A DNA stretch of 64,000 nucleotides from Minisyncoccia bacterium (GTDB lineage: Bacteria; Patescibacteriota; Minisyncoccia; Phycocordibacterales; UBA1006), in assembly GCA_044229075.1 (NCBI GenBank), contig JBGATS010000003.1, positions 12,372-76,371 of the forward strand. The letters are read 5' to 3'. Below are positions 7,627 through 47,927 of this stretch, piece after piece. The notes beneath the pieces were generated by a model. The model ran no database searches, was not told where the DNA came from, and was given only the letters and a program-made list of their open reading frames with translations. How positions within the stretch are numbered: the stretch's first letter is position 1; each line of letters begins with the position of its first letter. The position numbers and the translations under genes are program-made.

Positions 7627-7684
7627 TCAAAAAATACAAAACAAGGGGGGCGCCTACGGCGCCCCCCTTGTTTTGTATTTTTTG
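7627..7684. terminator. strong bidirectional rho-independent terminator
   Basis: A-run, then caaggggggcgcc-tacg-gcgccccccttg (13-bp GC-rich stem), then T-run. Lies downstream of tRNA-Ile (minus) and insulates the 6800-7549 gene. Confidence 0.75.
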
Positions 7685-28522: not shown

Positions 28523-28880
28523 AGTGAATAAGCAACAAAAATAGATAAAAGGATAATAAACTTCCCTTGGAAAGTGATAACGTTTCCCAAGAGAACAAGC
28601 ATAATGTAAAAACCCGACATTATGAACAGGAGCTAAATTCGCAATAGGAATACCCTATTGTGTCCTACACAAGACATGTAAGCAATTATACAAAAAAACA
28701 ATAAAAAATCAAGTAGATTATTTTTTGCTAGATATCTCAAGAATTAATCATTAAAATTCATAAAAATATATGTAAGACTCCCCCAATGCTTTACGGAACA
28801 CACCAAGCAGTATACGAGTGTTTATATTATGTCGATTTCTTAAATGGTTTACCCTGTATCTATATTAACACAGAGTCGGA

Positions 28881-28943: not shown

Positions 28944-29020
28944 TTTTATAAAACTGGAGCTGTTGCCCGGGATTGAACCGGGGACCTCTTCCTTACCATG
29001 GAAGTGCTCTACCAGCTGAG
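28944..29020 (-). tRNA. tRNA-Thr (anticodon GGT), CCA encoded
   Basis: RC gives GCTGTTG-TA-GCTC-AGCTGGTA-GAGC-A-CTTCC-ATGGTAA-GGAAG-AGGTC-CCCGG-TTCAATC-CCGGG-CAACAGC-T-CCA. Confidence 0.9.
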
Positions 29021-29199
29021 CTACAACAGCAAAAAATAAGACGGGTGAGCCGTTACGCACTCTTTAAATGATTTACTGCTTCCAAGTAAACATCCCCGCC
29101 CGATAATAAATTATCTACCTGTAAAAATAATCACGATTAGCAACTGAAAATCGTTGTGTTTATTTTCTTGAAAAGGTAATGAGATATTATCACAACCCC

Positions 29200-29227
29200 T
29201 TGAAAAATTCAAGAAATTGAGTATACT
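29200..29227 (+). promoter_or_regulatory. sigma70-like promoter for the tRNA-Met/tRNA-Asp cluster (TTGAAA, 16 nt spacer, TATACT)
   Basis: ttgaaa at 29200-29205, then a 16-nt spacer, then tatact at 29222-29227. The tRNA starts 22 nt later. Confidence 0.55.
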
Positions 29228-29248
29228 CCTACAAGTGTAATTTTTTTG

Positions 29249-29322
29249 TCGGGGTAGCTCAGCTGGTTAGAGCGTAGCATTCATAACGCTAAGGTCGTGG
29301 GTTCAAGTCCCACCCTCGACAC
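29249..29322 (+). tRNA. tRNA with CAT anticodon (elongator Met, or Ile2 if lysidine-modified)
   Basis: GTCGGGG-TA-GCTC-AGCTGGTTA-GAGC-G-TAGCA-TTCATAA-CGCTA-AGGTC-GTGGG-TTCAAGT-CCCAC-CCTCGAC-A. C11:G24 is elongator-type. There is one A:C mismatch at the bottom of the anticodon stem. Confidence 0.8.
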
Positions 29323-29408
29323 CTTGTTTTATACGTTCTCAGTGTATAAAGCGAAAAATGTTTTCAAAAGTTGAAATAAATTGAATATATGATAGTATTA
29401 CCATTATT

Positions 29409-29482
29409 GCAGTGGTAGCTCAGCTGGTTAGAGCATCCGCCTGTCACGCGGAAGGTCGAGGGTTCAAGTCCCTTTCACTGCG
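29409..29482 (+). tRNA. tRNA-Asp (anticodon GTC)
   Basis: GCAGTGG-TA-GCTC-AGCTGGTTA-GAGC-A-TCCGC-CTGTCAC-GCGGA-AGGTC-GAGGG-TTCAAGT-CCCTT-TCACTGC-G (G73 discriminator as expected for Asp). Confidence 0.9.
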
Positions 29483-29526
29483 CATAACAAAAAACCTCTT
29501 ATCACAAGAGGTTTTTTGTTATGCGC
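29480..29526. terminator. long perfect palindrome / bidirectional terminator
   Basis: gcgcataacaaaaaacctctt-atcac-aagaggttttttgttatgcgc, a 21-bp arm inverted repeat with a GC-rich core and A/T runs, shared by the tRNA operon (+) and the 503-aa gene (-). Confidence 0.7.
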
Positions 29527-29528
29527 TT

Positions 29529-31040
29529 TTAGCTTATTAGAACACCATTATCAAGTTTCATTTCCCCTTCATCGCAACCTACGATCTCGTTTGCGCGATT
29601 ACGTGAAGATTGGTACCACCATCCTGTTGGTGCTTCCAACCCCCATGGGTCCATAATCTCTGACCGTTCTTTTAGTTGGAACGCTTTTACTGCACGCTCT
29701 GTTGCACGGGTATATATCCCTGATACTAATAGGTGTGCGTTCATTTCCTTGTTGAGAAATTCTTGAATTTTTTTCACCTCAGAAATAGGGTTAAGTTTTC
29801 CGTATTTTACATAATGAGTAAAATGAGGACATGCTAGATCTACAGCATTATTTGTGTCGATTTTTGGAGGAGTGACTGGTATTGGATTTGTTGATAAGAA
29901 CCCAGTTGAGCCTCCTGTAGTTACATTAAAATCATTGTCGATAATAGTCACGTTAATTTTTTGTTCGATTTCATGGTAAAAACCATCACTTGACTCAGTA
30001 GTTATGGTAAGTATTCCATTATGTTCACCTTCTACAAGAGTATCATCAATTGCAGAAACAGTGATTAAATATGGTTGATTCCAGTCGTTACAAACATCTA
30101 TTTCTCCACTTTCAGATTTCGTTGCTTCTGCTTTTTTTATACCAAGGATAGATGTTGCTCGTGCTGATTTTTCTTCTGAAATGGAAGCTTCTTCTGCACT
30201 CTTCACCTCTTTCACTCCTCCACAACCAGCTTTTCCGCAACCTCCTCCTGTTTCAGTAGTAGGTTTAAAACATAATTGTTTTGGTCCTACATCTAACTGT
30301 CCATCTGGATCGATTGTTACATATACTTTATCAGTAGGATTTTCTGGAAGAGATATTCCAAAAGTATCAGTTTCACCAGACTCACTTACTTGATGAGTTG
30401 ACGAACTTATTACTAATGACCGTTTATCATTATCAATAATTGGTACTGCAAATTTTTGAGAACTGAATGTATACAAACTCTCATTTGATATAACTGTAGG
30501 AATAATTACTGTAGTATGAGCTCCTTCTATGTCATTATCATCAATTGCAGAAACCGGAATAATAAATGGATTATCCCAAGTATGGCATGTCGATGGATCA
30601 GGGAAAGTAGCCTGAGCGGAAACAGTTTTTACAAAATTAAATGCTGATTCAGCCTTTTTCTCGAGAGCAGGAGCTTCTAGAGCACTTTCGGAAGACTCTT
30701 TTACTTCTGGGATAAATGCTGCTTCATCAATTTTTACACTTGATTCTCCGGTAATCACTTTTTCTGTTACTTGTTTTGTTGTTTCTATCATCTCTCCACT
30801 ACTCTCCATAAATTCACCTTTAACAGCACCCTCTTTTGGATCAGTAGCTTCTGCTGGGTTGATAAAACAAACTGAAGACACTCCCAAGGTTGCCTGTGCA
30901 TCTGGAGTCAATTGTAATACCACCATAGGAACAGCTTCTGTAGATGTTCCTAATGCTTGACTTAATCGAATAGACACAGAGCCGACTGTACCTGATTCTG
31001 ATGCTTCTTGATTAATCGAAGTTATAATGTGGGGGGTCAA
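29529..31040 (-). CDS. secreted/cell-surface protein with two Calx-beta-like domains and a C-terminal peptidoglycan-binding-like domain (body of a gene whose signal/TM segment is in ORF 31012-31218)
   Basis: Repeats ...VSAIDDNDIEGAHTTVII... and ...VSAIDDTLVEGEHNGILTI...IIDND (Calx-beta-like). C-terminus CPHFTHYVKYG...VKKIQEFLN...GIYTRATERAVKAFQ...PWGLEAPTGWWY...ANEIVGC is shared with three neighbouring genes. TTG start directly after a G6 run. Confidence 0.6.
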   Translation of the reverse strand: MTPHIITSINQEASESGTVGSVSIRLSQALGTSTEAVPMVVLQLTPDAQATLGVSSVCFINPAEATDPKEGAVKGEFMESSGEMIETTKQVTEKVITGESSVKIDEAAFIPEVKESSESALEAPALEKKAESAFNFVKTVSAQATFPDPSTCHTWDNPFIIPVSAIDDNDIEGAHTTVIIPTVISNESLYTFSSQKFAVPIIDNDKRSLVISSSTHQVSESGETDTFGISLPENPTDKVYVTIDPDGQLDVGPKQLCFKPTTETGGGCGKAGCGGVKEVKSAEEASISEEKSARATSILGIKKAEATKSESGEIDVCNDWNQPYLITVSAIDDTLVEGEHNGILTITTESSDGFYHEIEQKINVTIIDNDFNVTTGGSTGFLSTNPIPVTPPKIDTNNAVDLACPHFTHYVKYGKLNPISEVKKIQEFLNKEMNAHLLVSGIYTRATERAVKAFQLKERSEIMDPWGLEAPTGWWYQSSRNRANEIVGCDEGEMKLDNGVLIS

Positions 31041-31218
31041 CTTCCTCTTTTCCTTTCCCTAAAATTGCATTTGGACTAAAGAAAATAGAGTAAAGCATTA
31101 TAAACAATAAACAAGCAGCAATAAATAATACGGGTGCATGTTTATGTAGTTGGATTGATTCACTGCCATGTTCACTATTTTTCATATATAGATAAAAATA
31201 TTTATAAACTAATAACAT
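31012..31218 (-). CDS. N-terminal signal/TM fragment (68 aa), probably the true 5-prime end of the 29529-31040 gene separated by a frameshift at a C6 (G6 on plus) homopolymer
   Basis: MKNSEHGSESIQLHKHAPVLFIAACLLFIMLYSIFFSPNAILGKG... (TM helix). It overlaps the next ORF by 29 nt. Removing one C from cccccc (31031-31036) gives an in-frame fusion ...EEVDPHIITSINQ. Confidence 0.5.
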   Translation of the reverse strand: MLLVYKYFYLYMKNSEHGSESIQLHKHAPVLFIAACLLFIMLYSIFFSPNAILGKGKEEVDPPHYNFD

Positions 31219-31302
31219 TCATAGTATACACTACAATAATAATTATTTGCAAGAAAAAAGAAATTATGATATCCTTCAAAGGTTGCTTTCGCAATATTTT
31301 AT

Positions 31303-31373
31303 AGCGGGATAGAGTAATGGTATCTCGTCAGGCTCATAACCTGAAGACCCCGGTTCGAATCCGGGTCCCGCAA
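31303..31373 (+). tRNA. initiator-like tRNA-fMet (anticodon CAT) with unpaired 1:72 (A1 opposite A72) and A11:U24
   Basis: A-GCGGGA-TA-GAGT-AATGGTA-TCTC-G-TCAGG-CTCATAA-CCTGA-AGAC-CCCGG-TTCGAAT-CCGGG-TCCCGC-A-A. Unpaired 1:72 and A11:U24 are bacterial initiator hallmarks. Anticodon stem base AGG:CCU. Only 71 nt with a 4-nt variable loop, and no CCA. Confidence 0.6.
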
Positions 31374-31387
31374 CATTAATGAAAAAT

Positions 31388-31414
31388 CCTCAATATAGAG
31401 CACTGAAGTATTTA
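31388..31414 (+). other. recurrent intergenic hairpin motif, copy 4 (AATAT-AGAGCACTGAA-GTATT)
   Basis: Same motif as 28881-28905 with a C-to-U change that keeps pairing as a G-U wobble. Lies between the initiator tRNA and a terminator. Confidence 0.4.
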
Positions 31415-31423
31415 TTTACAGAA

Positions 31424-31450
31424 TAAAAAACATCATACTGATGTTTTTTT
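31424..31450. terminator. bidirectional rho-independent terminator
   Basis: aaaaaacatca-tact-gatgttttttt. Confidence 0.6.
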
Positions 31451-31455
31451 GTAGT

Positions 31456-31977
31456 TTATTGAGCTTGTATCCCGTTTGTTTCTTGTGGTGATAATGAGGT
31501 ATTTCCAGGGGTAGATTTTGTTTGATCAAATGTTACCGGGCCAACATTTACAATCATTTTTCGTTCTGGACTGTAGATAATTGCCTTCCCCAATTGTGGG
31601 TATACTAATAATTTATCACCCTTTTGTGCGCCAGCAAAAAATGCTTGTTGATTGGTGAGTAGTACAGGATCTTGGATATCAAAAATTGCAGGGACATCAG
31701 ATTCTGGGAGCACCATAATCTTTTTTACTTCTTTTACTAATCGAACAGTTTCTGCTTGTACTCGTTTTTCTGATGCTTTTTTTGAAAGATTAAATTTGTA
31801 ATAGAATCCTGCCAAAACTACAATGATAATTCCAAGAATCGCAAGAATTGTTTTTTGTTTTGTAGAAAAAGAATTTTTTTTCTTACCCACAGACTGTTGA
31901 TTATCGAAACTGTTTTCATGAACAGCTGTGTTAGTAATTTCTTCGTTCATAAATTCGCTCATTTTTTTTGTAGTCAT
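31456..31977 (-). CDS. membrane-anchored hypothetical protein (173 aa)
   Basis: TM helix ILAILGIIIVVLAGFYY followed by a soluble domain. Confidence 0.4.
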   Translation of the reverse strand: MTTKKMSEFMNEEITNTAVHENSFDNQQSVGKKKNSFSTKQKTILAILGIIIVVLAGFYYKFNLSKKASEKRVQAETVRLVKEVKKIMVLPESDVPAIFDIQDPVLLTNQQAFFAGAQKGDKLLVYPQLGKAIIYSPERKMIVNVGPVTFDQTKSTPGNTSLSPQETNGIQAQ

Positions 31978-31999
31978 AAATAAATATAATAGACATTAA

Positions 32000-33367
32000 T
32001 TAATAATTTGGACACCCGACAATTTCATTTGCTTTACGTTTTGAATACGTTGCCCAGATACCTGTTACATTTGGTAATCCTGCAGCAGTAATGATGTCGG
32101 TATAATATTTTTGATGATACCGTTTTACAGTTCTCATAACAGCGGGTGTGTAGACAATCCCTTTTTTTAATTTTGCATCAGGGAACTCAGTATTTAAGAA
32201 ATTAATAATCCTGGAAACATCCCCGCCAATACTTCCTAATCGGTGATGTTTTGTAAATACCGGACATCGATTTGTAGTGGTTGGTTTTTCAATAACTACT
32301 TTTTCATAATAGGAAGGACACATGAAACTGTTAATTTTTGCAACGGTTGTTTTGTAGACATAACCTGTTGGACTACTTGTCCCCCATGGACCCAAAACAT
32401 CATTCATATACTTTGCCTGGAACCGTTTTACTGCGAGGTAATCAACTTTTTTATACCTTCCATCAATAACGAGTTTTTCTCCTTCGTGTTCCTTAAGGAA
32501 TTTTTGTAATTTACGAACCTCGACAGGATCATTTTTTGCACCTAATTTTATATATTTTAAAAGGTAGGGTCCACACTGATTATTGTTGATTATTGGTTGT
32601 GTTGGATTAACAGGTGTTGTAGTAGGTGCTACACAGAAACCGTTACTGTAGACAAGTGGGGCTATGCAACTACCTCCTCCGCCCCCAGAAGATCCACCAC
32701 CTCCACCACCTGAACTATTTACCTCATCAGTATCAAGAGAACTCGAACATCCAGGGTCCGACGGATAATCAATGAGTGCGTCTCCATCATTATCAATTCC
32801 GTCAGAACATGCATATATTGTACGGTACGGGATAGCTCGCCAATCTGTTTTTACACAAGTACCTGTTCCTGTACAATCAAATTTCATCCAACCACCATGC
32901 GCGCCGGATACCCATGCCCAACCTTGAAAATTACTACCAGCACCATTATCCACAAGTGTAACTCCGACAATTGCCCCTCCGGGTGCCGTAGTTGGTGAAA
33001 AGTTAATCCAGCTCCCTACATTTGCATATGCCTTTCCTGAAAGAGTGCCTGTTGTGGGATTTACTATCACACCAGCACCAGTTGGCGACATAGTAATCCA
33101 TCCAACTTCATTTCCCCATGCGTGCCCAGTAATTCCTGTATCAGTAATAGTCACCGCTGTGGCCCCTGGTGTATTACTATTTAATGTTGGTTTAAAGTTA
33201 ACCAAACCAAATACAGAACATGTGGTGTCCTTGCAAATTTTTGTTGTGGTATATCCTAGATCAATAGTACCAACTGTTACCGAAGCAACTGCTACACTAC
33301 TTAACGAGAATATACCCAGTGTAATACCGAAAAATAAATATATACTTTGAAGAAAAGATATTTTCAT
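32000..33367 (-). CDS. secreted cell-surface protein with two tandem C-terminal PG-binding-like domains and a Cys/Asp-rich Ca-binding-like segment
   Basis: Signal peptide MKISFLQSIYLFFGITLGIFSLSSVAVA. CSDGIDNDGDALIDYPSDPGC plus a Gly-rich linker. Two copies of the C..(F/Y)T.(Y/H)..G.....V..(I/L)Q.FL...PWG..(A/S)PTG.(W/Y)Y...ANEIVGC module. Confidence 0.55.
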   Translation of the reverse strand: MKISFLQSIYLFFGITLGIFSLSSVAVASVTVGTIDLGYTTTKICKDTTCSVFGLVNFKPTLNSNTPGATAVTITDTGITGHAWGNEVGWITMSPTGAGVIVNPTTGTLSGKAYANVGSWINFSPTTAPGGAIVGVTLVDNGAGSNFQGWAWVSGAHGGWMKFDCTGTGTCVKTDWRAIPYRTIYACSDGIDNDGDALIDYPSDPGCSSSLDTDEVNSSGGGGGGSSGGGGGSCIAPLVYSNGFCVAPTTTPVNPTQPIINNNQCGPYLLKYIKLGAKNDPVEVRKLQKFLKEHEGEKLVIDGRYKKVDYLAVKRFQAKYMNDVLGPWGTSSPTGYVYKTTVAKINSFMCPSYYEKVVIEKPTTTNRCPVFTKHHRLGSIGGDVSRIINFLNTEFPDAKLKKGIVYTPAVMRTVKRYHQKYYTDIITAAGLPNVTGIWATYSKRKANEIVGCPNY

Positions 33368-33434
33368 TACTTATAAGTATATCATAAAAACATTATTAGA
33401 AAATACTATTCTTGATAGAGGGAAAACAAGGCCG

Positions 33435-33463
33435 TAAAAAAAGCCACTGTCAAGTGGTTTTTT
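33435..33463. terminator. rho-independent terminator
   Basis: aaaaaaagccact-gtca-agtggtttttt. Confidence 0.6.
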
Positions 33464-33470
33464 ATAGTTT

Positions 33471-35765
33471 TTATTTACCGCAACTATTATTAATCAATGA
33501 TCGAGTAATAGGCCCTACGAGTCCATCTTGATCGGTACCAAGGAATTTTTGCATTCTCTTGATAGCCCCATCAGTAATGGGACCGAGAATACCATCAACT
33601 GGTCCGCTATTGAAACCAAGTCTGTTCATGTGTGTTTGGAGTATTTTTACTTCACGAAGAATTTCTTTATTCGCAATAGTTACTCGAGAATAATTATTAA
33701 TACGACCATTACGAGCACCCATTTTCATATTTTGGGTAATTAATAAATCACTTGAACACTGTCCTGGATTTCCAAGGATTGGTGTTGTACTTGTAATTAC
33801 AGGAGAAGAAGTTGTAGTATTTGGTCTCGGTGTACAGAATGTAGTAATTGTTGTAGAACAATACTGAACTCCACCTCCAGATGAAACAGAGGGTGCTATA
33901 TAATTAAAATTACCTGTTACTGACGGCGAAGCCCCTCCTGCATTTGTTTGAATTATTGTAATAACTGCAGGGTTTGCAGAAAGAGTAATCGGTGTTGTAT
34001 AGGTTCCACCTATAGCACAAACTACTGTAGTTGGGTTTGGCGTAAGAGCACTTGAAGTAAGGGTTACAGTTGCACCTGCTTCACATGTACCACTTGCGGT
34101 GCCAGCTGTTGCTGACGTTGGGGTAATTGTCACTGTTGGCACACTTGGGATAAATGTTACTGTTCGTGTAATAATATTTGAATTCGTATCTTGTCGATTT
34201 CCTATACTATCAATAACTCCTGTTGGCGAAATGCCAAATGGAATCGATACTGTAAGTGGTCCACTTGCTATTGGTGTAATATCAACAGTATACGGACCTG
34301 ACCCTGACCCAACAATATTTGAAGCGGTTCCATTCGTCACAGAAATATCTGAAAGAGTAAGTTCTGAAATTGATTCATTTGGAGTAATAGTAACGGTAAA
34401 TAATCCTGTCACTGTTGCTGGCGCTGTTGTTGAGAGTACAATTATTGGTGCTGTTGCGTCGATTGTAAACGACGAAAGCGTAAGGGTATTTGAAATATTA
34501 CCCGCAGCGTCTGTTACTGTGATAGTACATGCTACATAGGTACCGTTTGCAAGTGCATTTAATGTTATTGTATTGCTTCCCGCCGTTGCTGTTGTGGTAG
34601 CACTTGAGCAAGAACCTCCATAGGTAATAGTCCCTGCCTCGTTAGTAGTAAATGTATAGTTTGGGGTAGTATCGTTGGTAGGAGTTGTGACTGCAGTTAC
34701 TTCTGAGATGGTGGGTGTGGTAGTATCGTAGGTAACAGTATTATCAGTGCTTGTTGCTACTAGATTCGGATTTCCATTTACGTCGGTCACCATATTCGCT
34801 GCAAGTGATACGATAATCGTTCCATTTCCTGTAGTAGTAACAGGAATAGTCCACGTAATATTGTCAGTTGTTGTAGGTGTTCCTACGGTTCCAGCACCTG
34901 TTCCTGATAACACAATATCACTTGCAGTAAGTGTTGCAGGATTAATTGCTTCAGAAAAAATAGCTGTAAAGCTTAGCGCGCTGTTATTAGTTGGATCTGC
35001 TTGCCCACCTGATTGGTTGATAGTTACTGTTGGCTGTGTTACATCAAAAGTACATGCACTTGCCCCATAAGGAGTAGTATTATTTACCCAGTTACTACTG
35101 TTTGCAAGCGACCCAAGAAGTGTACTTGAAAAAAATCCCGCTTCTATACAACTATACTGAAAATTATCAGGAGAACCCAGAGATATTGCCGTTGTTCCAA
35201 GTGAAAGCGGTGATGGGACCCACGAATTGTTCGATGATGGTGGAACACTTGAAGTCCATGTCGTAGCACCTGCCCATCCAACACCATAAATAAACAAAGG
35301 TACCGCGGCTGTCCCTTGAAAAACAAGAAGGTTGTCTCCACTTGTTGCAAAATCCATAGTATTGGAACCGCTTGCAACACCCAAGGCTCCTGTTGCACCA
35401 TCAATCGAAAACATGTCCCATGTTCCTGGAGCGCCTGCAATTAAAGAGTCATCAAAATGGACAATGGTTCCTGCAGTAATTGCGGACGGTGCCGTAAAAC
35501 GAACAACTCCCTCGGAAAGTCCTGACCGCCAAAAAGGAACCCCCAGTGAACCATCCCAACCTTTATCAGTAAAATAAATTACTGTACCTGCATCAATATC
35601 AACCCGAGATACGAAATCAAATCCATTTGTTGATGGGTAAGTACCTGTGGCATTTGCAGTGATAATAACAAGATCACCTGGTAATAATACTGTTGCAGCA
35701 AAACTAATACGCGGAAGTATTACCAACGCAAGAACTGCAAAAAATGTAATTAATATTTTTTTCAT
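33471..35765 (-). CDS. secreted T/S-rich Ig-like-repeat surface protein with canonical C-terminal peptidoglycan-binding domain (PG_binding_1-like)
   Basis: Signal peptide MKKILITFFAVLALVILPRISFA. Long T/S/V-rich beta-repeat region. C-terminus VKILQTHMNRLGFNSGPVDGILGPITDGAIKRMQKFLGTDQDGLVGPITRSLI matches PG_binding_1. Confidence 0.6.
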   Translation of the reverse strand: MKKILITFFAVLALVILPRISFAATVLLPGDLVIITANATGTYPSTNGFDFVSRVDIDAGTVIYFTDKGWDGSLGVPFWRSGLSEGVVRFTAPSAITAGTIVHFDDSLIAGAPGTWDMFSIDGATGALGVASGSNTMDFATSGDNLLVFQGTAAVPLFIYGVGWAGATTWTSSVPPSSNNSWVPSPLSLGTTAISLGSPDNFQYSCIEAGFFSSTLLGSLANSSNWVNNTTPYGASACTFDVTQPTVTINQSGGQADPTNNSALSFTAIFSEAINPATLTASDIVLSGTGAGTVGTPTTTDNITWTIPVTTTGNGTIIVSLAANMVTDVNGNPNLVATSTDNTVTYDTTTPTISEVTAVTTPTNDTTPNYTFTTNEAGTITYGGSCSSATTTATAGSNTITLNALANGTYVACTITVTDAAGNISNTLTLSSFTIDATAPIIVLSTTAPATVTGLFTVTITPNESISELTLSDISVTNGTASNIVGSGSGPYTVDITPIASGPLTVSIPFGISPTGVIDSIGNRQDTNSNIITRTVTFIPSVPTVTITPTSATAGTASGTCEAGATVTLTSSALTPNPTTVVCAIGGTYTTPITLSANPAVITIIQTNAGGASPSVTGNFNYIAPSVSSGGGVQYCSTTITTFCTPRPNTTTSSPVITSTTPILGNPGQCSSDLLITQNMKMGARNGRINNYSRVTIANKEILREVKILQTHMNRLGFNSGPVDGILGPITDGAIKRMQKFLGTDQDGLVGPITRSLINNSCGK

Positions 35766-35824
35766 AGTATATAAATTATATCATAATAATAAAAAACACC
35801 TAACAGTGTTTTTTATTCATCTAT

Positions 35825-38467
35825 TTAATTTTTTACTACATTTCCATTATCAAGCTTCGTCTCACCTTCACTACATCCAGCATGGTAGTTTGCAAGATTT
35901 CGCGTAGATTGATACCAGTGTCCTGTTGGTTTTGAAAGTTTCCAAGGAATTAATACCTTATCAGCATATTTATTTTGATATTGCTCTACTGCCTTCTTTG
36001 TTTGTGGACCAAAAACTCCTGAAATTGGTAATTTTATTCCTAAGTGTTCATTGAGAAATTCTTGCATCTTTTTAACCTCAAAAATTCCATTTTTTCCATC
36101 ACGATCACCATACCGCATATATTGAGTAAAATATGGACATGATTTTTGGTCTTTTATTAATTCTGCAGCATTAGAATTTAACGTGGATGAATTTACTATA
36201 TTCCAACCCAGTACTGCTATCATTCCTCCACCAGAACCTGATGTTATGGTTGGAAGAGAGTAATTAATAGTGAGTGCATTGGAAGCTGTTGCATTTGTAT
36301 TACTTGCTCCATCAGTCACACTCCCTGCAAGAATTTGTACCGTTATTGCTCCTGGGGCTATAGGTGTAATGGTAACCGCATAGTTACCAGACCCATCAGG
36401 TCCGACGAGGTTTGATGCCGTGCCGTTGGTTACCATTAAATCAGAAAGCGTAAGTCCGGTAATTGATTCACTTGGGGTAATGGTTACGGTGAATGGAGCT
36501 GATACTGAGGCTGATGAAGTTGCAAGAGTAATAGTCGGCGCAGTTGTATCAGATGGTACTGATGCAATAACCAACACACTTGTCCCGTCTCCTGTTTGAT
36601 TTTCTGTCGTACCAATATTACCAGCGGCGTCATGCGGAATGATTTCAATATTGGTAAGCGCTTGGCCATATATCATTCCTATGGTAAGCGATGCGGCTAG
36701 TACCGTACATGTATACGGATCAGTAACGACTGACGGAGCGGTACATATTGCTGCAACACCGCCAACAGTAATTGTCGATGTGGCAAGGTCAAGAATCTCA
36801 TCAGAAATAAATGAGAGGGTTACACTATCAGAACCTGAAGTTGCTTCAAAGCTTGGACTTGTCCCTGAAGGTCCTGAGATACTCACACCACTGATTACTG
36901 GGGCCGTTGTATCGCCGGCATCTGCAATAATAGTAGTAAGATTTGCAGGAAGTGAGAGACTTGAGTAATTTGTATCTGGTGAAGTAATTGCAATAAATTC
37001 TACGACACCTGTATGAGTACCTTCTGGTACCCCATCAACAACTGGAGTCACTGTAATTTCTTGTCCGAGATTCCAAGTATTACATGGCTCAAACGGTGAA
37101 ATACCAGGTGTTATTGACATGCTTGCAGGTACAAAACAAACTCCAGATACTGGATTACCATCTTTAGTTAACTCCAACTGTCCATCAGTATTCGTAAATG
37201 CTATTTCTACAATATCTGTTGGTTCATTTGATAAACCCATTTGAAATGTTGTAGCGACTGGTCCGGTTTCATTTATATTTGCAAGGTTTGGTGTTGGTGA
37301 AACCCATACCCCAGCAGTTTGTGGAAGTGTAGCCGTGAGGAAGATACTCAGCGTATTTCCATGATTTACCGCTGCAGCATCAGGAAGACTATCTCCATCA
37401 AAATCATTTACAGCAATTCCAAGAGGACTAAAATTCACCGTATAAGGAACTGGTGCATCAAATGTTAGATCACCATTACCCAGGGCAACCTGCACTCCTC
37501 CTGTTGATGTAGCCGAAGCATCTGACCATAAAACATCTAAATTTCCATCACCATCAAAATCCACTATCTTTGAATAATATGCTGAGCCTGGATATGTTTG
37601 ATGAATAATTGATCCATCCAAAGAAACAATACTCATTCCATCATTAGGAGAAGTGACTACTAATTCATAAATACCATCATTGTTAAAATCAGCAGTATTT
37701 ACACCGTACGGATTAGTTGATGCAAAGCTATAATCAAAATCAAAATTTCCAGATCCATCGTTTCGATATGCTTGAATTTGACTTTGGTTTTCATCTGCAA
37801 TAATGATATCTTTCCATCCATCACCTGTGTAATCAAATGCAGTCATTGCTTTACCTCCATGACCAGAACCGGTACCTCCTGCTGTCGCATAAGAAAATAC
37901 TCCTGACCCATTGTTCGTATACACCTCGAACGCGCTTACATTTTCTGTGCCGATAATAACATCGTTATCTCCGTCATTATCCATATCAGCAAGAGTTAAA
38001 TCTCCTTGACGAGTTCCATCTGTGTTACTTAATGCAACTACATCAAAAGCACCTGTAAACCGTACTCCTGCTCCTGTATTTTTATATATTTGGAGTTGTC
38101 TCAAATTACTATTCCCCACAACAATATCAACATCTCCATCGCTATCGATATCACCAACAGCAAGCCCCCATTCATAGGAAGCACCGTCGCCAAGAATTAA
38201 CGGTGCCTGAAAGGTTCCGTTTCCGTTTCCATATAAAATTCCGATTCCTGCCATACTTTTTCCATCGGTTACTACAAGATCGTTTTTTCCATCTGCATTA
38301 AAATCTGCAGATTCTACGAGGTGCATATCGCCGCCTAGAATAGTTGGAGTTTGTGGATTAAATGGATATGCGGACACAGTATGGTATCCAAACAGAGCAA
38401 TAACAATTACTCCTGCACATAGCCCTGCCAGCTGATAATATAATTTTTTTATATTTGGATTACCCAT
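35825..38467 (-). CDS. secreted FG-GAP/VCBS-repeat (beta-propeller) surface protein with Ig-like domains and C-terminal PG-binding-like domain
   Basis: Repeated FNADGKNDLVVTDG, VGDIDSDGDVDIVVGNSN, DMDNDGDNDVIIGTEN, DFDGDGNLDVLWSD (FG-GAP Ca-binding repeats). C-terminus CPYFTQYMRYG...VKKMQEFLNEHLG...PQTKKAVEQYQ...PWKLSKPTGHWY...AGC. Confidence 0.6.
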   Translation of the reverse strand: MGNPNIKKLYYQLAGLCAGVIVIALFGYHTVSAYPFNPQTPTILGGDMHLVESADFNADGKNDLVVTDGKSMAGIGILYGNGNGTFQAPLILGDGASYEWGLAVGDIDSDGDVDIVVGNSNLRQLQIYKNTGAGVRFTGAFDVVALSNTDGTRQGDLTLADMDNDGDNDVIIGTENVSAFEVYTNNGSGVFSYATAGGTGSGHGGKAMTAFDYTGDGWKDIIIADENQSQIQAYRNDGSGNFDFDYSFASTNPYGVNTADFNNDGIYELVVTSPNDGMSIVSLDGSIIHQTYPGSAYYSKIVDFDGDGNLDVLWSDASATSTGGVQVALGNGDLTFDAPVPYTVNFSPLGIAVNDFDGDSLPDAAAVNHGNTLSIFLTATLPQTAGVWVSPTPNLANINETGPVATTFQMGLSNEPTDIVEIAFTNTDGQLELTKDGNPVSGVCFVPASMSITPGISPFEPCNTWNLGQEITVTPVVDGVPEGTHTGVVEFIAITSPDTNYSSLSLPANLTTIIADAGDTTAPVISGVSISGPSGTSPSFEATSGSDSVTLSFISDEILDLATSTITVGGVAAICTAPSVVTDPYTCTVLAASLTIGMIYGQALTNIEIIPHDAAGNIGTTENQTGDGTSVLVIASVPSDTTAPTITLATSSASVSAPFTVTITPSESITGLTLSDLMVTNGTASNLVGPDGSGNYAVTITPIAPGAITVQILAGSVTDGASNTNATASNALTINYSLPTITSGSGGGMIAVLGWNIVNSSTLNSNAAELIKDQKSCPYFTQYMRYGDRDGKNGIFEVKKMQEFLNEHLGIKLPISGVFGPQTKKAVEQYQNKYADKVLIPWKLSKPTGHWYQSTRNLANYHAGCSEGETKLDNGNVVKN

Positions 38468-38526
38468 AGACTTGAAAAGTGTTATACTTATTAATATATT
38501 ATTATAATAACATAATACTACTTATT

Positions 38527-38721
38527 ATGCACAAACTTTTCAAACAAATACCAACACAACTCATCCTTGCAATTATTCCTATGGTTGCACTGTTTATCGG
38601 CGTAGGCATTGGCTATACCATAAATAAACTTGAGGTGAAAAAACTAAAAACTGAACTTGCTCAAAAACAAAAAGTTATTTTTGATCTAGAAAAAAATTGT
38701 CATGGTCATGAAGATTATTAA
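38527..38721 (+). CDS. small membrane protein (64 aa), hypothetical
   Basis: ATG 38527 (MHKLFKQIPTQLILAIIPMVALFIGVGIGY...), one TM helix plus a coiled-coil tail. The only plus-strand ORF in this block. Confidence 0.25.
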   Translation: MHKLFKQIPTQLILAIIPMVALFIGVGIGYTINKLEVKKLKTELAQKQKVIFDLEKNCHGHEDY

Positions 38722-38726
38722 ATAGA

Positions 38727-38759
38727 TAAAAAAATCACTCATATATGAGTGATTTTTTT
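38727..38759. terminator. bidirectional rho-independent terminator after the giant gene
   Basis: aaaaaatcactcatat-atgagtgattttttt. Confidence 0.65.
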
Positions 38760-38762
38760 ATC

Positions 38763-41700
38763 TTATTCAGTAGGAGTATCCCCTGATCCACCAGAACCAG
38801 TGTTAGTCGGGGGAGGTGTTGTACCCCCTGATCCCGAATCTCCTGTTCCTGAAGTACTACTTGTCGGATCTGTAATATCTCCACCAGACGTGTCGCCAGT
38901 ACCAGTATCACCAGAAGGCGTAGAATCGCCATCTGTTCCAGTTCCTGTTGATGAAGTATCCCCACCACTAGGGGTAGATGATCCACCAGAAACAACTGTT
39001 CCTTGTCCATTCATCATTGATTCCAATTGGTCACCATTTACACAGTATTCAGATCCATCTGCTTTTTTCAAACAAATTTGTTCTGAACGAACCTTTTTCG
39101 CAAAGAGTTCATTAATTCCGTTTGTTGCACTCGCGAGCCAGTCACGGAGCTTGGTAACAAATGTTGAATCAGTTCCATCTGTGTTAAATTCAAAGTTCTC
39201 AATCTGATTAATATTTAGATCAAGCTCTTTGATTGCCGCGATAACAAATGGGATTGATGATGATTCATTAATAGCTAAATACCCGTCAGGATTAGTTACA
39301 ACACCTGCTGGAATTAATTGTTGAAATTCCTGTGCAAGGAAACCATCGTAATGAGTTCCTGTTCCATCCCCGATGAAATTATAATTCACCGGACGAAGTC
39401 CTGTAATTTTTGCAAGTGCATCTGCAGTATTGATATCCACTACATTTTCCTTGAGTCGTGCATCAGACGTACATGCCCAGTTTGCACCAGCACCAGGATT
39501 GAATGTACACACTCCGGCTGCAGTATTGTCATCAACTGTGATCAGATTCCCGTTTGGAGTCGTAGCAGAACCGATCGATACTAATGCTGATGTTGCTGCA
39601 CTATCAACTGTCAGTAATCCGCTTGTTGTTGTTGTGCCAATACCTAATCGTCCTGCAGCATCCAGTCGCATACGCTCTACACCTGCGGTACTGAATCCAA
39701 CAATATCAGCGCCCGGACTAAATATTCCTGTATTAGTATCTGCAGTCCAACTATACGCAGGTACAGCAGCAGTCCCAAGTCCTGTTAATTGAACACCACC
39801 TGTAGACGTTTCTTGAAGAAGTTTCACCCAAGATGTCCAAACTCCTCCATTTCGTCCACGCATAAAGATACCATTATTAACATTATTTGAATATGGAATA
39901 CCTAATTGGGTAGTATTACCAGTTCCATCTTTACTACTATATTCAAAGTTAAACGGATGATAGTAACTTCCTGATCCAGGACCATTTGTTGCGGTACCTA
40001 GAAGTAAGGTGTATCCCTGACCTGATCGTGAATTAGTAACATCATTCCAATCAACAACACCTGCTGTAGTTACCGCCCCAAAACCTCCTTGAATAATTCC
40101 ATTCACTTCAAGTTTTTGTGTTGGTGCTGCAAATCCTAATCCAAGATTTCCTGCTGCAGTAAGTGTCATTCGAGTCGCGCCTGATGTTTCAAAATTGAGA
40201 TTTTGAACATCATTCGTACCAAGTGTTGCTGCTGCTCCAAAACTATTTCCATTTTGGATAAACATACCAGTCGTTCCATTGATATCAAATTTACGAAGAT
40301 CACCATTTGCGTCTGAATAAACTAATCCATTCGTACCACCGAGAGCAAGTCCTGAAATTGATGTTCCTCCGAGTGAATTAAATCGAATGTTTGCAGTCCC
40401 TGCAGTACCTGCAACATGGAATAATTGTGATGGTGTTGTAGCACCAAGACCAATACCGACATTACCGCCATTTGGGTTAAACATCATTGGGTAATTAACC
40501 GCAAGTGTCCCCTGATTCGTTACCTGCATCCATGCACCATTAGCGCCATTGATACCCGTATCAATAACTACACCTGAAGCATCGCCAAATCGTGATACAT
40601 GTCCAGCACCTTGTACAGTTCCAGAAGTTGCGGCAAAACTTGAGCCGCTATCGTTTACAAATAATCGTGCAGTTGTAAGAGGTGTCGCACCAATACCAAA
40701 ATTACCAATAGTATCAAATGTTGCACGGGTCACACCAGCTGTTTCAAATCCAAGATTAAACAAGTCATTCGTACCGAGGGTTGCTGTTGTTCCAAAACTA
40801 TTTCCGTTTTGGATAAAGTCACCATTCGTAATACTTGCCATTGATCGTTTATACAATTCGCCGTTTGTATCTACAAACAATATTCCGTCATTTGCTCCCA
40901 TGGTATAGGCCGTAGTTATTGCCGGACCAGAAAGATGGGTAATACGTACATTTGGTGTTCCGGCTGCCGCTGTCTGAGCAACACCATTTACATGAAATTG
41001 ACGTGTAGGAGCAGTTGTACCGATACCTACATTCCCACCGTTAGGGTTAAGCATAAGTGGATATGTCAAAGACAAATCTCCAGTATTAGTTGCTTGAAGC
41101 CAGGTACCTGATCCTCCATTACCACCAATATCAAGTGTTGCGCTTGTCGCTGCGCGAAGTCGTGTAATAAATCCTGCAGATTGAGCAGTTCCTGAAGTAC
41201 TTGGGAATGCGTTTCCAGTTCCTACTACTTCTAGTTTTGCCTGTGGGATTGTGGTATTAATACCAAAATTACCACCTGCATCCAGTCGCATACGTTCTGT
41301 ACCATTAGTTGACCATGCTTGAATATCTGCGCCTGGACTCCACCAACCGTTGTTAGTATCCCCAACAAAACTATGTGATGGAGTACCAGCAATACCCAGT
41401 GCGGTAAACATACGTCCTGTAGTATCTATTTGGAATAAGTCACCGTTTCCTACGGTAAAGAGTGAAGCAGGTGTTGTATCACCAATACCTACAAACCCAC
41501 CAGCAGTAACACGCATACGTTCGGTGTTACTTGTTCGTGTGACAAAATCAACTGCATCAGTGGTACCAATAAAATTGGTTGTTGCAAGTGTTCCTGCATT
41601 TCCTGTTATCATCCAACCGTTATTAGCATTTGCCAGAGCAACCCAACCAGTGTTCGTTCCAAGACCTGAAGCCTTGTAATACATAATTCCATTAGTAATA

Positions 41701-44700
41701 TCATTTGCAATATCACCCACTGATCCAGTTACAAAAGCATTGGGGCTACTATTGGTAATAAATGTTTGATAATCACCCCCTTGGTTTGCAAGTGTTTCAA
41801 TTGGGATATTCATTGTAAGTCCACTATTTACATGTAATTTTGTAGCAGGGGTATTTGTTCCAATTCCTAAACGACTATTGGTATTATCCCAGAAGTATTG
41901 CGCATTGTTTTGTGAAAGTAGTCCTCCTGCACCTGCAAAGAATACTGATCCTGGGGTCATCGTCGCAAAAGTTGTATTTCCATTAAATGTCGCTGCACCT
42001 GCAAAGGTTTTTGCTCCAGCAAAGGTTTGTGTTCCTGTTGAGACGAGTCCTGGGAATGTTGCGTCCGCAGTCTGCATAAAGAGGTTTGTTCCAGAGATTG
42101 CAGCACCATTTGCAGATTTTGTAGTTCCATCAAGTGTTCCAATAGTACTCACTCCTGCTGTGATTGCAACTGATCCTGCAGCGGTAAGGCGCCCCTGCGC
42201 ATCTACCGTAAATGTTGGTATGTTAGTTGCAGATCCATATGAACCTGGAGTAACCGCAGTGTTTGCAAGACCTACGGTTGCCGTTGCATTTTCAGCGCCG
42301 GTACCTGTTACGGTAAGGCCTGTCCCAGAAAGAATGGTCGCAACATAGTTTCCGGTGGTGTCAGTACCCAAGGCTACTGCATCAGGCTGTACTACGGTTG
42401 CACCAAGCGTACCTCCGATATCACCCGCAAGGGTAAGTCCAGAGATAGGAGTACTTGAAGCAATTCCATTGACTGTTGAGGTAAGATTACCCGCAGCAAA
42501 AGAAAGAGTATTACTGTTAACAATAGGAGCCGTTACTGAAATACCGTTTACGACGGAGGTCAACGTGTTTGCCGATGACCCAAGAGTATGAGTCATTGCT
42601 ATTGATCCAGCTGCAGTGAGACGTCCTTTACTATCTACGGTAAATGTTGGAATACTCGTAGCTGATCCATATACTCCAGCAGTTACTGGTGTGTTTGAAA
42701 GAGTAAGTGATGTACCTGTTCCCAATACTGCACCGGTTCCACCTGTTATAGAAATATCAGAGGTGGTTGAGGTAAGGTTTCCACCAGCAAGTGATGAAAG
42801 AGCTATAGATCCTGCACCTGTTAATCGTCCTTGTGCATCTACTGTAAAGGTAGGAATAGATGATGTTGAACCATAAGATCCAGCAACTACTCCTGTGTTG
42901 GTAAGAGAGATGGTTCGATCTGCTGAAAGATTTCCTCCCCCTGTGAGACCAGTTCCTGTGAGTATTTGTCGAGTACTATCTACTTTTGCATTAAAGGTTG
43001 CCCAATCAGTAGGTGTAAGAAGACCTCGATTTACAGCCGTAGCAGAAGGAAGATTTAAAGTATGTACCCCTGCTGCAGTTGTAATATTTGCATTGGTTCC
43101 TAGAGATCCAATAACAATACTTTGGTTTGGATTAGTATCACCATTAATAGAGGTAATAACTCCTAATGATGAAAGCGGTTGCCATGAATCAGTTCCTCCA
43201 GCACCACCAGAAACCAAGACCATACCTGATGATCCACGTGATCCTGATGGGGCAAGTCCTCCGGTACCATTCATACCATAATACATATCACCATTACTAT
43301 CGATGATATATTTGTTCGCATCGTTAGTTCCTAGGATTACAGCATTACCCCAATCACCAACAAGGTTTGAACCAATCGTAATTGCCCCGTTTTTAACAAG
43401 ATTATTTCCAAAACCAAATGCTGCTGTACCTGACACACCTGATCCTGAATTATTAAGACCAATCATTACAGAGGTATCAGAATTATCAATTCCATTACCA
43501 TATCCAAATTGGTATATTAATTTACCATTATCCTTACTTCCATTATCCATACCAATTTGTGTTTGGTATGAAGATCCTCCAGAAATACTGTTTCCTTGCC
43601 CAAATTGTTGCGTATTTTGTCCATCAGTACTATTTAATTCACCTACTTGATAAGTACTTGTTCCTGATGAACTGTTGTTGTCACCAAAAATCATATTCAA
43701 CGAACCTGACATTGATGTACCTGTACCAAACGCAAGATTCTGTCCTGCAGTATCTACAATCGTTGGTTGGTTAAGTGTTCCTCCAAGGATAATTTCTGTT
43801 CCTGTATTGGTAAGTCCATTATTCACTGCAACTAATCCAGTAACATCAGACCATGTAGGTGAATTACCTGCTCCATTAGAAACAAGTATCTGTCCACTGT
43901 TTCCTGCTGTTCCACTTGCAATAAGATCATTTAAAAGAATGACTGAATCATTGAATGATTTATCACCACCAAATGTTTGAGCACTTGTCGTAACAAGACC
44001 TCGCGCAAGAGTTGAAGCGTTAGGAATATTAAGAGTTAGAGTTCCTCCAAGAGATGCAGGAGATCCAGAAACATTCACATCAGTTCCCGTTGTTCCTGTT
44101 GCAAGACCAATCGTCCCTAATCCAGAAAGAGGCGTGGTTGCTGCAACTCCGTTAATAGTAGAAACAAGGTTCCCACCTGCAATAGCAAGCGTATTCGCAT
44201 TAATAATAGGAGCTGATGTAGAAACACCATCAACAACCGATGTCATAGTATTTACTAATGAACCCAATGTATTCGTAAGAGTACGATTCCCAGCAAGGGT
44301 AAGTCGTCCTTGGGCATCAACGGTAAAGCTCGCAATAGACCCAGGAGCTCCATACGAACCAGCAGTAACGCCCGTGTTATTCAATCCTACAGTAATATCA
44401 CCAAGTCCTACCAAGCGGTTAGTAAGTGCTCCTCCAAGTGTCATTCCTGTTCCTTGGATAATTGATCCAGCTGATCCAGTCGTTGCACAGGTAGGGCATG
44501 AAATTTCACCGGTTGTGTTGTTGTACGCAATAGGTGCAAGTCCTGAGAGTGCTGCACGCGCTCGTGCATTGGTGAAATAGAGATTTCCGTTTTCAGGAAC
44601 AACTGAAGTGTCAAGTGTCTGCCAAGTTTTATCACCACGCCAGTATTGCGCCGTAGTTCCTGCAACAATTGCAGGTTCTTTGCTATTGAAATTAATCCAA

Positions 44701-47700: not shown

Positions 47701-47927
47701 GTGTTGGTGGTGAGCGATGTTGTTTCATCGATCGTCTCCAGGATTGCTGGAAAACAATTGGTGTCGAGTGGGCCGCAGGGTTCAACCGATTCTGCGCCTG
47801 GATCGATGGTTTGACCAACGGTAAATGGATTGGTTCTTGTAACCGCAAATGTTGCAACAGGTACACTCACAATACCAATGATTGCTACAAGTGATACGTA
47901 TCGCATCACGGAAATTATTTTTTTCAT
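38763..47927 (-). CDS. giant (3054 aa) repetitive cell-surface fibre protein, tail-fibre-like, with C-terminal Peptidase_S74 intramolecular chaperone domain and Gly/Thr/Ser/Asp-rich tail
   Basis: N-terminal signal/[30 protein letters not shown]. About a dozen copies of [24 protein letters not shown]. Four copies of TTAQY(L/W)RGDKTWQ(N/T)[19 protein letters not shown]. Near the C-terminus, [63 protein letters not shown] matches the S74 chaperone-of-endosialidase domain. Confidence 0.8.
44350..44577. repeat. near-identical internal DNA repeat within the giant gene (copy 1 of an about 1.36-kb-period duplication)
   Basis: An about 200-nt stretch ccatacgaaccagcagtaacgcccgtgttattcaatcctacagtaatatcaccaagtcctaccaagcggttagtaagtgctcctccaag... 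is repeated almost exactly at 45709-45936. It encodes ...[52 protein letters not shown]. Confidence 0.8.
45709..45936. repeat. near-identical internal DNA repeat within the giant gene (copy 2)
   Basis: Same sequence as 44350-44577 with a few substitutions. The plus-strand shadow ORFs 44134-44580 and 45196-45939 share a 51-aa identical stretch because of it. Confidence 0.8.

What the first reader, a model, noticed from the sequence alone, without database searches (positions are those of the whole stretch)
31012..31040. G6/C6 homopolymer at the frame junction of a surface-protein gene: phase-variation switch or frameshift error
The 503-aa Calx-beta/PG-binding protein lacks a signal peptide and starts at a TTG right after gggggg (31031-31036). 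A 68-aa ORF encoding an N-terminal TM/signal segment ends 29 nt inside it in another frame. Deleting a single C/G from the run fuses them in frame (...EEVDPHIITSINQ...), restoring the signal-plus-body architecture seen in the three paralogs. Slipped-strand mispairing at such tracts is a classic ON/OFF phase-variation mechanism for surface adhesins. It may also be a homopolymer sequencing error.
Basis: seen in the sequence. Interest (0 to 1): 0.6.

Follow-up and report, generated by a model that had tools for sequence, protein, structure and literature searches.

The report
Frameshift-split surface protein gene
One extra base in a run of six C's has cut a cell-surface protein gene of an uncultured Patescibacteria bacterium off from its membrane-targeting start, while a 98.9%-identical strain keeps the gene whole; this is an ordinary strain-level gene knockout and shows no sign of being a dedicated on/off switch.

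Summary
G6 lies at 31031-31036 (C6 on the coding minus strand), exactly where a 57/68-aa ORF encoding a transmembrane helix overlaps a 503-aa ORF by 29 nt in another frame. Removing one C fuses them.

New evidence settles that this is one gene. A 98.9%-identical strain (Logan contig from SRR30545106) carries a single 546-aa ORF with GGCCCCC (C5) in place of GACCCCCC. The body shows dN/dS of about 0.1 between the two strains, so it was functional until recently.

C6 is reproduced with 100% identity in a separately built contig from SRR28480391, and the window's long ORFs (up to 3054 aa) are intact. A sequencing error is therefore unlikely.

A dedicated phase-variation switch is not supported:
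- The tract (6; the intact allele has 5) is below the usual cut-off of 7 or more G/C.
- G/C runs of 6 or more are not enriched in the window (4 observed, about 9.5 expected).
- The length change comes with an adjacent A/G substitution.

Programmed frameshifting is not supported, because the relative needs no shift and no stimulator is present.

Verdict: a recent, genuine frameshift allele at a short, mildly slippage-prone homopolymer. It is a known kind of event and of low interest.

The parts
29529..31185 (-). The whole disrupted gene: one membrane-anchored or secreted surface protein (551 aa if repaired), now split into two ORFs.
   Evidence: Fusion by deleting 1 nt. The intact 546-aa orthologue P0002 in L002 is collinear over its whole length.
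31031..31036 (-). C6 run (G6 on the + strand), the site of the +1-nt lesion. The sister strain has C5 preceded by G instead of A (window position 31037).
   Evidence: window GTTGACCCCCCACATT against L002 GTTGG-CCCCCACATT.
31012..31185 (-). 5' fragment: a 57-aa ORF from the ATG at 31185 (ORF listing extends it to the ATG at 31218, giving 68 aa). It encodes a short basic tail, a TM helix, and an out-of-frame tail PPHYNFD* after the run.
   Evidence: P0003 is the 57-aa protein as held in the NCBI-sourced collection.
31075..31137 (-). Transmembrane / signal-anchor helix APVLFIAACLLFIMLYSIFF(S).
   Evidence: Kyte-Doolittle 19-residue mean of 2.2-2.6 at residues 16-20 onward. The amino-acid sequence is identical in L002.
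29529..31040 (-). 3' fragment: a 503-aa ORF (mechanical TTG start) holding the extracellular body. It has an acidic Ser/Glu-rich region, two ~100-aa repeat domains of Calx-beta-like type, and a C-terminal PG_binding_1-like module.
   Evidence: PG_binding_1, 22.2 bits; repeat domains at query residues 199-309 and 366-449 hit giant multi-repeat proteins; homologue P0010 reaches Calx-beta at 46.7 bits; C-terminal module shared with the 455-, 764- and 880-aa neighbours.
31223..31252 (-). Promoter-like site TTGCAA-18-TATACT upstream of the gene. This is a consensus match only.
29480..29526 (.). Hairpin with a 20-bp stem directly after the stop codon. Its tails fit a bidirectional terminator shared with the convergent tRNA-Asp.
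31145..31146 (-). Second indel between the strains: L002 has an extra T (CAT-TAA against CAT-AAA). This moves the usable start from the ATG at 31185 (MKNSEHGSESIQLHK...) to the ATG equivalent to 31168 (MAVNQSNYIK...). It does not disrupt the gene.

Best explanation
This is a single gene for an N-terminally membrane-anchored (or signal-cleaved), probably cell-wall-associated surface protein of a Patescibacteria (Paceibacteria/Nomurabacteria-like) bacterium. In this strain it carries a genuine, recent 1-nt insertion in a short C run (C5 to C6, together with an adjacent G/A change). The lesion uncouples the TM/signal segment (57 aa, then 7 out-of-frame codons and a stop) from the 500-aa extracellular body. 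The body therefore has no export signal, and the gene is most likely OFF in this population. A short G/C homopolymer is a mild hot spot for polymerase slippage, which explains why the break sits there. Reversion is possible in principle. Nothing indicates that the tract has evolved as a high-frequency switch. Shown: the split, the exact lesion, the intact allele in a sister strain, and purifying selection on the body. Inferred: loss of function, the direction of the mutation, and slippage as the cause.
For: (1) An intact allele exists. P0002 (546 aa; Logan contig from SRR30545106; L002) reads ...GKGKEEVGPHIITSINQ... in one frame. The DNA alignment shows C5 there against C6 here.
(2) The two strains are 98.9% identical over 2379 bp. 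In the 1500-nt body there are 12 synonymous and 4 non-synonymous differences, giving dN/dS = 0.096 (binomial p = 1.4e-5 against neutrality). The gene was therefore under selection for most of the divergence, and the break is recent.
(3) C6 is reproduced with 100% identity over 3888 bp in a separate assembly (L001, SRR28480391). The window carries unbroken ORFs of 3054, 1012, 880, 764 and 752 aa, so the assembly is not riddled with homopolymer indels.
(4) The architecture expected of the family is signal plus body. P0145 (544 aa) has a classical signal peptide, two repeat domains and the same C-terminal module. The three neighbouring proteins that share the module all have hydrophobic N-termini.
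(5) It is a monocistronic unit, with a promoter-like site upstream and a strong terminator downstream.
Against: No reads could be inspected, so within-population heterogeneity (C5/C6 mixtures) is untested. The NCBI assembly and the Logan contig may derive from the same run, so C6 rests on one sample. Only two alleles are known and there is no outgroup, so the direction of change is inferred from function, not phylogeny. The adjacent A/G difference means the event was either two mutations or one complex G-to-AC replacement, which is not textbook slippage. Three indels cluster in 163 nt at the 5' end, with none in the other 2216 nt. This hints that the 5' end is unusually indel-prone, which a plain one-off mutation does not explain.
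Confidence: 0.62

Rival explanations
1. Low-rate, reversible phase variation: the C5/C6 tract serves as an ON/OFF switch for a surface protein through slipped-strand mispairing, and the two strains are caught in different phases.
For: The tract lies in the 5' part of a surface-protein gene, where a length change toggles expression. Two near-identical strains differ in tract length, one ON and one OFF. Low dN/dS shows the OFF allele has not decayed. [quoted passage not shown]
Against: The tract is only 6 (5 in the ON state). The cut-offs used for phase-variable G/C tracts are 7 or more, with experimental switching shown for 8 or more in C. jejuni (PMC6321876). G/C runs of 6 or more are not enriched in the window (4 against 9.5 +/- 3.1). 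Two of the four are the arms of a terminator hairpin. No other surface-protein gene in the cluster carries such a tract. The length change is coupled to an adjacent substitution. No further alleles were found.
Confidence: 0.2
2. Sequencing or assembly artefact: the true sequence is C5 and the gene is intact in this organism.
For: Homopolymers are the commonest site of consensus indel errors. The break is exactly one base in a run, and the rest of the gene looks perfectly functional.
Against: The same C6 appears in a Logan contig that is 100% identical over 3888 bp, and a second contig from the same run is 100% identical over 1946 bp. This implies accurate reads. A 9.2-kb ORF and several 2-3-kb ORFs are unbroken. 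A 6-base run is short for a consensus error.
Confidence: 0.1
3. Recoding: the full-length protein is still made from the C6 allele, either by +1 ribosomal frameshifting (tRNA-Pro slipping on CCC-CCA) or by transcriptional slippage on the run.
For: CCC-C is a known +1-prone P-site context (established knowledge, not tested here). The two frames overlap by about 47 nt, so a shift anywhere in that stretch would give a fusion.
Against: The shift is not conserved, since the sister strain is in frame. There is no stop or obviously slow codon in the A site; the 0-frame stop lies 5 codons after CCA. The purine-rich GAGG element lies 8 nt upstream of the CCC P-site codon, not the ~3 nt seen in prfB-type sites. 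The surrounding RNA is less structured than shuffled controls (z = +2.1), and Rfam finds only the flanking tRNA genes above its thresholds. Six C's is short for RNA-polymerase slippage.
Confidence: 0.04
4. Two real, separately functional genes: a 57-aa membrane peptide and a cytoplasmic 503-aa (or 482-aa) protein, as called in the public collections.
For: The source collections call them as separate proteins: P0003 (57 aa) and P0001 (482 aa). A purine-rich stretch precedes the TTG.
Against: The relative has them fused. The purine-rich stretch is coding sequence (GKGKEE) in the fused gene. The body consists of extracellular-type modules (Calx-beta-like repeats and a PG-binding-like module) that in every relative examined follow a signal peptide.
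Confidence: 0.03

Closest known systems
Homopolymer-associated frameshift alleles of surface-protein genes, e.g. the 5' poly(A) tract of Listeria monocytogenes inlA (Orsi et al. 2010, PMC2831843)
   Same: A short homopolymer near the 5' end of a gene for a wall-associated surface protein. A 1-nt change truncates the product to a short N-terminal peptide. Both intact and frameshifted alleles exist among close strains. Reversion is possible in principle.
   Different: Here the tract is C5/C6, not poly(A). No mutation rate has been measured. Only two alleles are known, and the indel is coupled to an adjacent substitution. The organism is an uncultured Patescibacteria bacterium, not a pathogen.
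Simple-sequence-repeat contingency loci (poly-G/C phase-variable genes of Campylobacter, Neisseria and Haemophilus; PhasomeIt criteria, PMC6321876)
   Same: An intragenic G/C tract whose length sets the reading frame of a surface-exposed protein.
   Different: The tract is below the 7-or-more cut-off. Such tracts are not enriched in the genome segment. There is no evidence of within-population length heterogeneity.
Programmed +1 ribosomal frameshifting (prfB type)
   Same: Two overlapping frames that need a +1 shift, with a slippery run and an upstream purine-rich stretch.
   Different: The frameshift is absent from the orthologue. There is no A-site stop codon, the spacing of the SD-like element is wrong, and nothing is conserved.
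Patescibacteria (CPR) secreted surface proteins with Calx-beta-like repeats and a C-terminal PG_binding_1-like module (e.g. P0145 and the window's 455-, 764- and 880-aa neighbours)
   Same: Same modular plan: N-terminal signal or TM segment, beta-sandwich-type repeats, and a ~100-aa C-terminal module ending ...ANE(I/V)VGC(D/P)....
   Different: No full-length orthologue other than the sister-strain allele was found among 1.84 billion representatives. The N-terminal 190 residues are lineage-specific.

Membership tests
Frameshift-disrupted gene (split ORF / incipient pseudogene) | Two adjacent same-strand ORFs in different frames that together are collinear with one protein in a relative | tested here: met
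   P0002 (546 aa) covers both ORFs. tblastn aligns residues 1-546 to L001/the window.
Frameshift-disrupted gene (split ORF / incipient pseudogene) | An identifiable lesion at the junction | tested here: met
   C6 against C5, plus an A/G change at 31037.
Frameshift-disrupted gene (split ORF / incipient pseudogene) | The lesion is real and not a consensus error | tested here: inconclusive
   The sequence is identical in a second assembly, but probably from the same sample.
SSR-mediated phase-variable (contingency) locus | A repeat tract placed so that unit gain or loss switches translation or transcription on and off | tested here: met
   C5 gives a fused ORF and C6 gives a split ORF.
SSR-mediated phase-variable (contingency) locus | Tract length in the hypermutable range (7 or more G/C by PhasomeIt; 8 or more shown experimentally in C. 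jejuni) | tested here: not met
   The length is 6 (5 in the ON allele). Cut-offs are from PMC6321876.
SSR-mediated phase-variable (contingency) locus | Pure tract-length variation among close relatives or within a population | tested here: inconclusive
   Two alleles differ in length but also in the adjacent base. No further alleles were found. Reads were not available.
SSR-mediated phase-variable (contingency) locus | Over-representation of such tracts in the genome, especially in surface-protein genes | tested here: not met
   4 runs of 6 or more against 9.5 +/- 3.1 expected and none of 7 or more; two of the four are terminator arms.
SSR-mediated phase-variable (contingency) locus | High-frequency, reversible switching | not testable with these tools
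   This needs read-level or culture data.
Programmed +1 ribosomal frameshift | The frameshift requirement is conserved in orthologues | tested here: not met
   The L002 orthologue is in frame.
Programmed +1 ribosomal frameshift | A slippery codon followed by a stop or slow A-site codon, with a stimulatory element at defined spacing | tested here: not met
   The site is CCC-CCA-CAT, with the stop 5 codons after CCA. GAGG lies 8 nt upstream. There is no local structure (z = +2.1).
Pfam Calx-beta (PF03160) | Score at or above the gathering threshold (27 bits) | tested here: not met
   There is no Calx-beta hit for the 503-aa or the 546-aa protein even at E up to 1. Homologue P0010 of the repeat domain scores 46.7 bits, so the relationship is indirect.
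Pfam PG_binding_1 (PF01471) | Score at or above the gathering threshold (23 bits) | tested here: inconclusive
   The score is 22.2 bits at residues 420-457, just under the cut-off. Proteins sharing the same module pass: the 764-aa neighbour at 49.4 bits and P0088 at 69 bits.

The most novel reading that the evidence does not exclude
The short C5/C6 tract, together with the indel-prone 5' end (three indels in 163 nt, including one that swaps between two overlapping start codons), could be a genuine low-threshold ON/OFF switch for a surface protein in a Patescibacteria episymbiont. That would be the first contingency-type locus described in this radiation, possibly favoured by reduced mismatch repair. 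I found no paper linking phase variation to Patescibacteria in the listed results of one literature search, but that is weak evidence of absence.
Probability: 0.12. Interest if true: 0.5.

Novelty: new member of a known kind. Interest (0 to 1): 0.2.

Why it matters
The practical value is mainly annotation. The 57-aa and 482/503-aa proteins held in public collections are two halves of one surface-protein gene, and should be labelled as a frameshifted gene. Biologically, it shows strain-level presence or absence of one surface protein in an uncultured Patescibacteria lineage, within a variable, tRNA-flanked cluster of surface-protein genes. That fits the idea that cell-surface repertoires of these probable episymbionts turn over quickly. 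It does not reveal a new mechanism.

Tried and rejected
- Word-indexed homologue search with the repaired protein found only its own cluster.
- An exhaustive HMMER search of 1.84 billion representatives gave no full-length orthologue, only domain-level hits to giant repeat proteins and to C-terminal modules.
- Scans of genome contigs and metagenome contigs with the intact protein found nothing. An exact DNA pattern across the junction also found nothing in metagenome contigs.
- Exact-protein look-ups of the 173-aa neighbour and the 57-aa fragment returned only the same SRR28480391 contig.
- The S12 look-up and EF-G-based loci gave relatives whose S12-upstream context is different and which lack the gene. 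They could not serve as an outgroup.
- The sequence search of solved structures was uninformative.
- The programmed-frameshift idea was rejected for lack of conservation, of A-site pausing and of structure.
- Structure prediction was not run. It would not bear on the frameshift question, and the useful alignment members were not eligible.

Full report
**Observation.** On the + strand the window reads ...agttataatg tGGGGGGtca acttcctc..., with G6 at 31031-31036. On the coding (minus) strand, a 68-aa ORF (31012..31218; 57 aa from the ATG at 31185) ends ...GAA GTT GAC CCC CCA CAT TAT AAC TTC GAT TAA. A 503-aa ORF (29529..31040) begins TTG ACC CCC CAC ATT... in another frame, and the two overlap by 29 nt. 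Deleting one base of the run gives a continuous ORF reading ...GKGKEEVDPHIITSINQ.... The small ORF encodes a strongly hydrophobic helix, with a Kyte-Doolittle 19-residue mean up to 2.59. The description is therefore accurate.

**Is the run itself unusual?** It is not. The window (39% G+C) has four G/C runs of 6 and none longer. First-order Markov simulations give 9.5 +/- 3.1 such runs. Two of the four are the arms of a perfect terminator hairpin at 7645/7662.

**What the protein is.**
- Pfam finds only a sub-threshold PG_binding_1 match at the C-terminus (22.2 bits against a cut-off of 23). There is no Calx-beta hit even at E up to 1.
- An exhaustive HMMER search of 1.84 billion representatives shows two ~100-aa repeat domains (residues 199-309 and 366-449 of the repaired protein). 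These recur many times in giant proteins. One such protein, P0010, does reach Pfam Calx-beta at 46.7 bits.
- A ~100-aa C-terminal module is shared with many small secreted proteins and with the neighbouring 455-, 764- and 880-aa proteins. In the 764-aa neighbour and in P0088 this module passes PG_binding_1 clearly.
- All three neighbours, and the similarly built P0145 (544 aa), start with a signal-type hydrophobic segment.
- The gene therefore encodes an exported, probably wall-associated surface protein. Without the N-terminal segment the body has no route out of the cell. That last step is an inference.
- The organism is a Patescibacteria bacterium of the Paceibacteria/Nomurabacteria type. 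Its EF-G is at most 87% identical to any GTDB species representative.

**The decisive evidence.** The 90%-identity cluster of the body holds a second member, P0002, of 546 aa, from a Logan assembly of a different run, SRR30545106. Its contig (L002) is 98.9% identical to window 28998..31375, with 24 substitutions and 3 indels. There the TM segment and the body form one ORF reading ...GKGKEEVGPHIITSINQ... At the junction L002 reads GTTGG-CCCCCACATT, against GTTGACCCCCCACATT in the window. The outcome is that relatives do not carry two separate genes, and the split is a lesion in this strain.

**Age of the lesion.** Across the 1500-nt body the two alleles differ by 12 synonymous and 4 non-synonymous changes. 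This gives dS = 0.036, dN = 0.0035 and dN/dS = 0.096, with p = 1.4e-5 against neutral expectation. The gene was under purifying selection for most of the time separating the strains. The frameshift is therefore recent, or reversible, or not real.

**Is it real?**
- A Logan contig from SRR28480391 (L001) is 100% identical to window 29426..33313, including C6.
- Another contig from that run (L009) is 100% identical over 1946 bp.
- That run is probably the source sample, so this is agreement between assemblers, not between samples. It does imply accurate reads.
- The window carries unbroken ORFs of 3054, 1012, 880, 764 and 752 aa, which does not fit an assembly riddled with homopolymer errors.
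- I put the artefact reading at about 10%. Only a read pile-up can close it.

**Is it a phase-variation switch?**
- For: the position is right, in the 5' part of a surface-protein gene. Two near-identical strains sit in ON and OFF states. [quoted passage not shown]
- Against: the tract is 6 in the OFF state and 5 in the ON state, below the cut-off of 7 or more used for G/C contingency tracts. It is also below the 8 or more for which switching has been shown in C. jejuni. The same paper notes that even its cut-offs include tracts whose mutability may be too low for efficient switching (PMC6321876).
- Against: G/C tracts are, if anything, depleted here, and none of the other surface-protein genes has one.
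- Against: the length change is coupled to an adjacent A/G substitution (31037). At 1% divergence that adjacency is unlikely by chance, roughly 2% by my estimate. It suggests one complex event (G to AC, or the reverse) or two hits, not a clean repeat-unit slip.
- I rate a functional switch at about 20%.

**Is it recoding?** The orthologue needs no shift. The site, CCC-CCA-CAT, has no A-site stop. The SD-like GAGG is 8 nt upstream. The local RNA is less structured than shuffled controls (z = +2.1). Rfam finds only the flanking tRNA genes above its thresholds. I rate this at about 4%.

**Anatomy of the unit.** The parts, in order along the minus strand:
- a promoter-like TTGCAA-18-TATACT at 31252-31223;
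- the ATG at 31185 and the TM helix at 31137-31075;
- the lesion at 31036-31031;
- the body down to the stop at 29529;
- a 20-bp-stem hairpin at 29526-29480 that fits a bidirectional terminator.

The gene is flanked by convergent or divergent tRNA genes: tRNA-Met at 31303-31374, and tRNA-Asp and tRNA-Met at 29409-29483 and 29248-29323.

**Side observations.**
- All three indels between the strains lie within 31036-31198, with none in the other ~2200 nt.
- The indel at 31145 (an extra T in L002) puts a TAA into the MKNSEH... frame and moves the start to a second, overlapping ATG. The N-terminal tail becomes MAVNQSNYIK... while the TM helix is kept.
- The T and C indels are of opposite sign. The distance from that second ATG to the body is therefore the same in both strains, which is why tblastn aligned P0002 to L001 in a single frame at 93% identity.
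- Homology between the strains stops exactly at the 3' end of tRNA-Met (31375). L002 continues with what looks like the 3' end of another tRNA and a hairpin, in place of the 173-aa gene.
- Contigs 96-98% identical across S12-S7-EF-G lose homology at 28718 and carry type IV pilus genes there.
- The surface-protein region is thus structurally variable between close relatives.

**Conclusion.** This is a single surface-protein gene, knocked out in this strain by a recent 1-nt frameshift in a short C run, and intact in a sister strain. Its phase-variation reading is possible only in a weak, low-rate sense, and its sequencing-error reading is unlikely. It is a known kind of event in a new place. Its main consequence is that the two public protein entries should be merged and annotated as one frameshifted gene.

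Noticed in passing
window 31145-31185 (minus strand); L002 327-360: A 1-nt T indel between the two strains swaps the start codon between two overlapping ATGs in different frames. The N-terminal tail is MKNSEHGSESIQLHK... here and MAVNQSNYIK... in L002, while the TM helix is kept. All three indels between the strains fall within 163 nt at the 5' end, and none in the remaining ~2200 nt.
   Followed up: partly
window 31375 onward; L002 1-121: Homology between the window and the sister-strain contig stops exactly at the 3' end of tRNA-Met (31303-31374). L002 continues with what looks like the 3' end of another tRNA and a hairpin, in place of the 173-aa gene and the surface-protein cluster. This suggests a strain-variable region bounded by a tRNA.
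   Followed up: partly
window 28718; L003, L005, L006, L008: Contigs from other runs (SRR1493258x) are 96-98% identical over S12-S7-EF-G. They lose homology just upstream of S12 and carry type IV pilus genes (T2SSE/T2SSF, prepilin peptidase, N_methyl pilins) instead of the tRNAs and the surface-protein gene.
   Followed up: partly
window 31456-47927 (minus strand): A run of five same-strand genes for a TM protein and exported proteins of 173, 455, 764, 880 and 3054 aa. Three of them (455, 764 and 880 aa) share a ~100-aa C-terminal PG_binding_1-like module with the split gene. The 880-aa protein also has FG-GAP and Big_12 domains, and the 764-aa protein has Big_12.
   Followed up: partly
window 7637-7676: G6 (7645) and C6 (7662) are the two arms of a perfect 17-bp hairpin (AAAACAAGGGGGGCGCC-TACG-GGCGCCCCCCTTGTTTT) with T-rich and A-rich tails. 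It is probably a bidirectional terminator next to tRNA-Ile.
   Followed up: yes
window 29480-29526: A hairpin with a 20-bp stem sits between the 3' end of tRNA-Asp (29483) and the stop codon of the surface-protein gene (29529). It fits a shared bidirectional terminator for the convergent units.
   Followed up: no
whole window: G/C homopolymers of 6 or more appear depleted (4 observed against 9.5 +/- 3.1 in first-order Markov simulations), and none reaches 7. A/T runs reach 8.
   Followed up: yes
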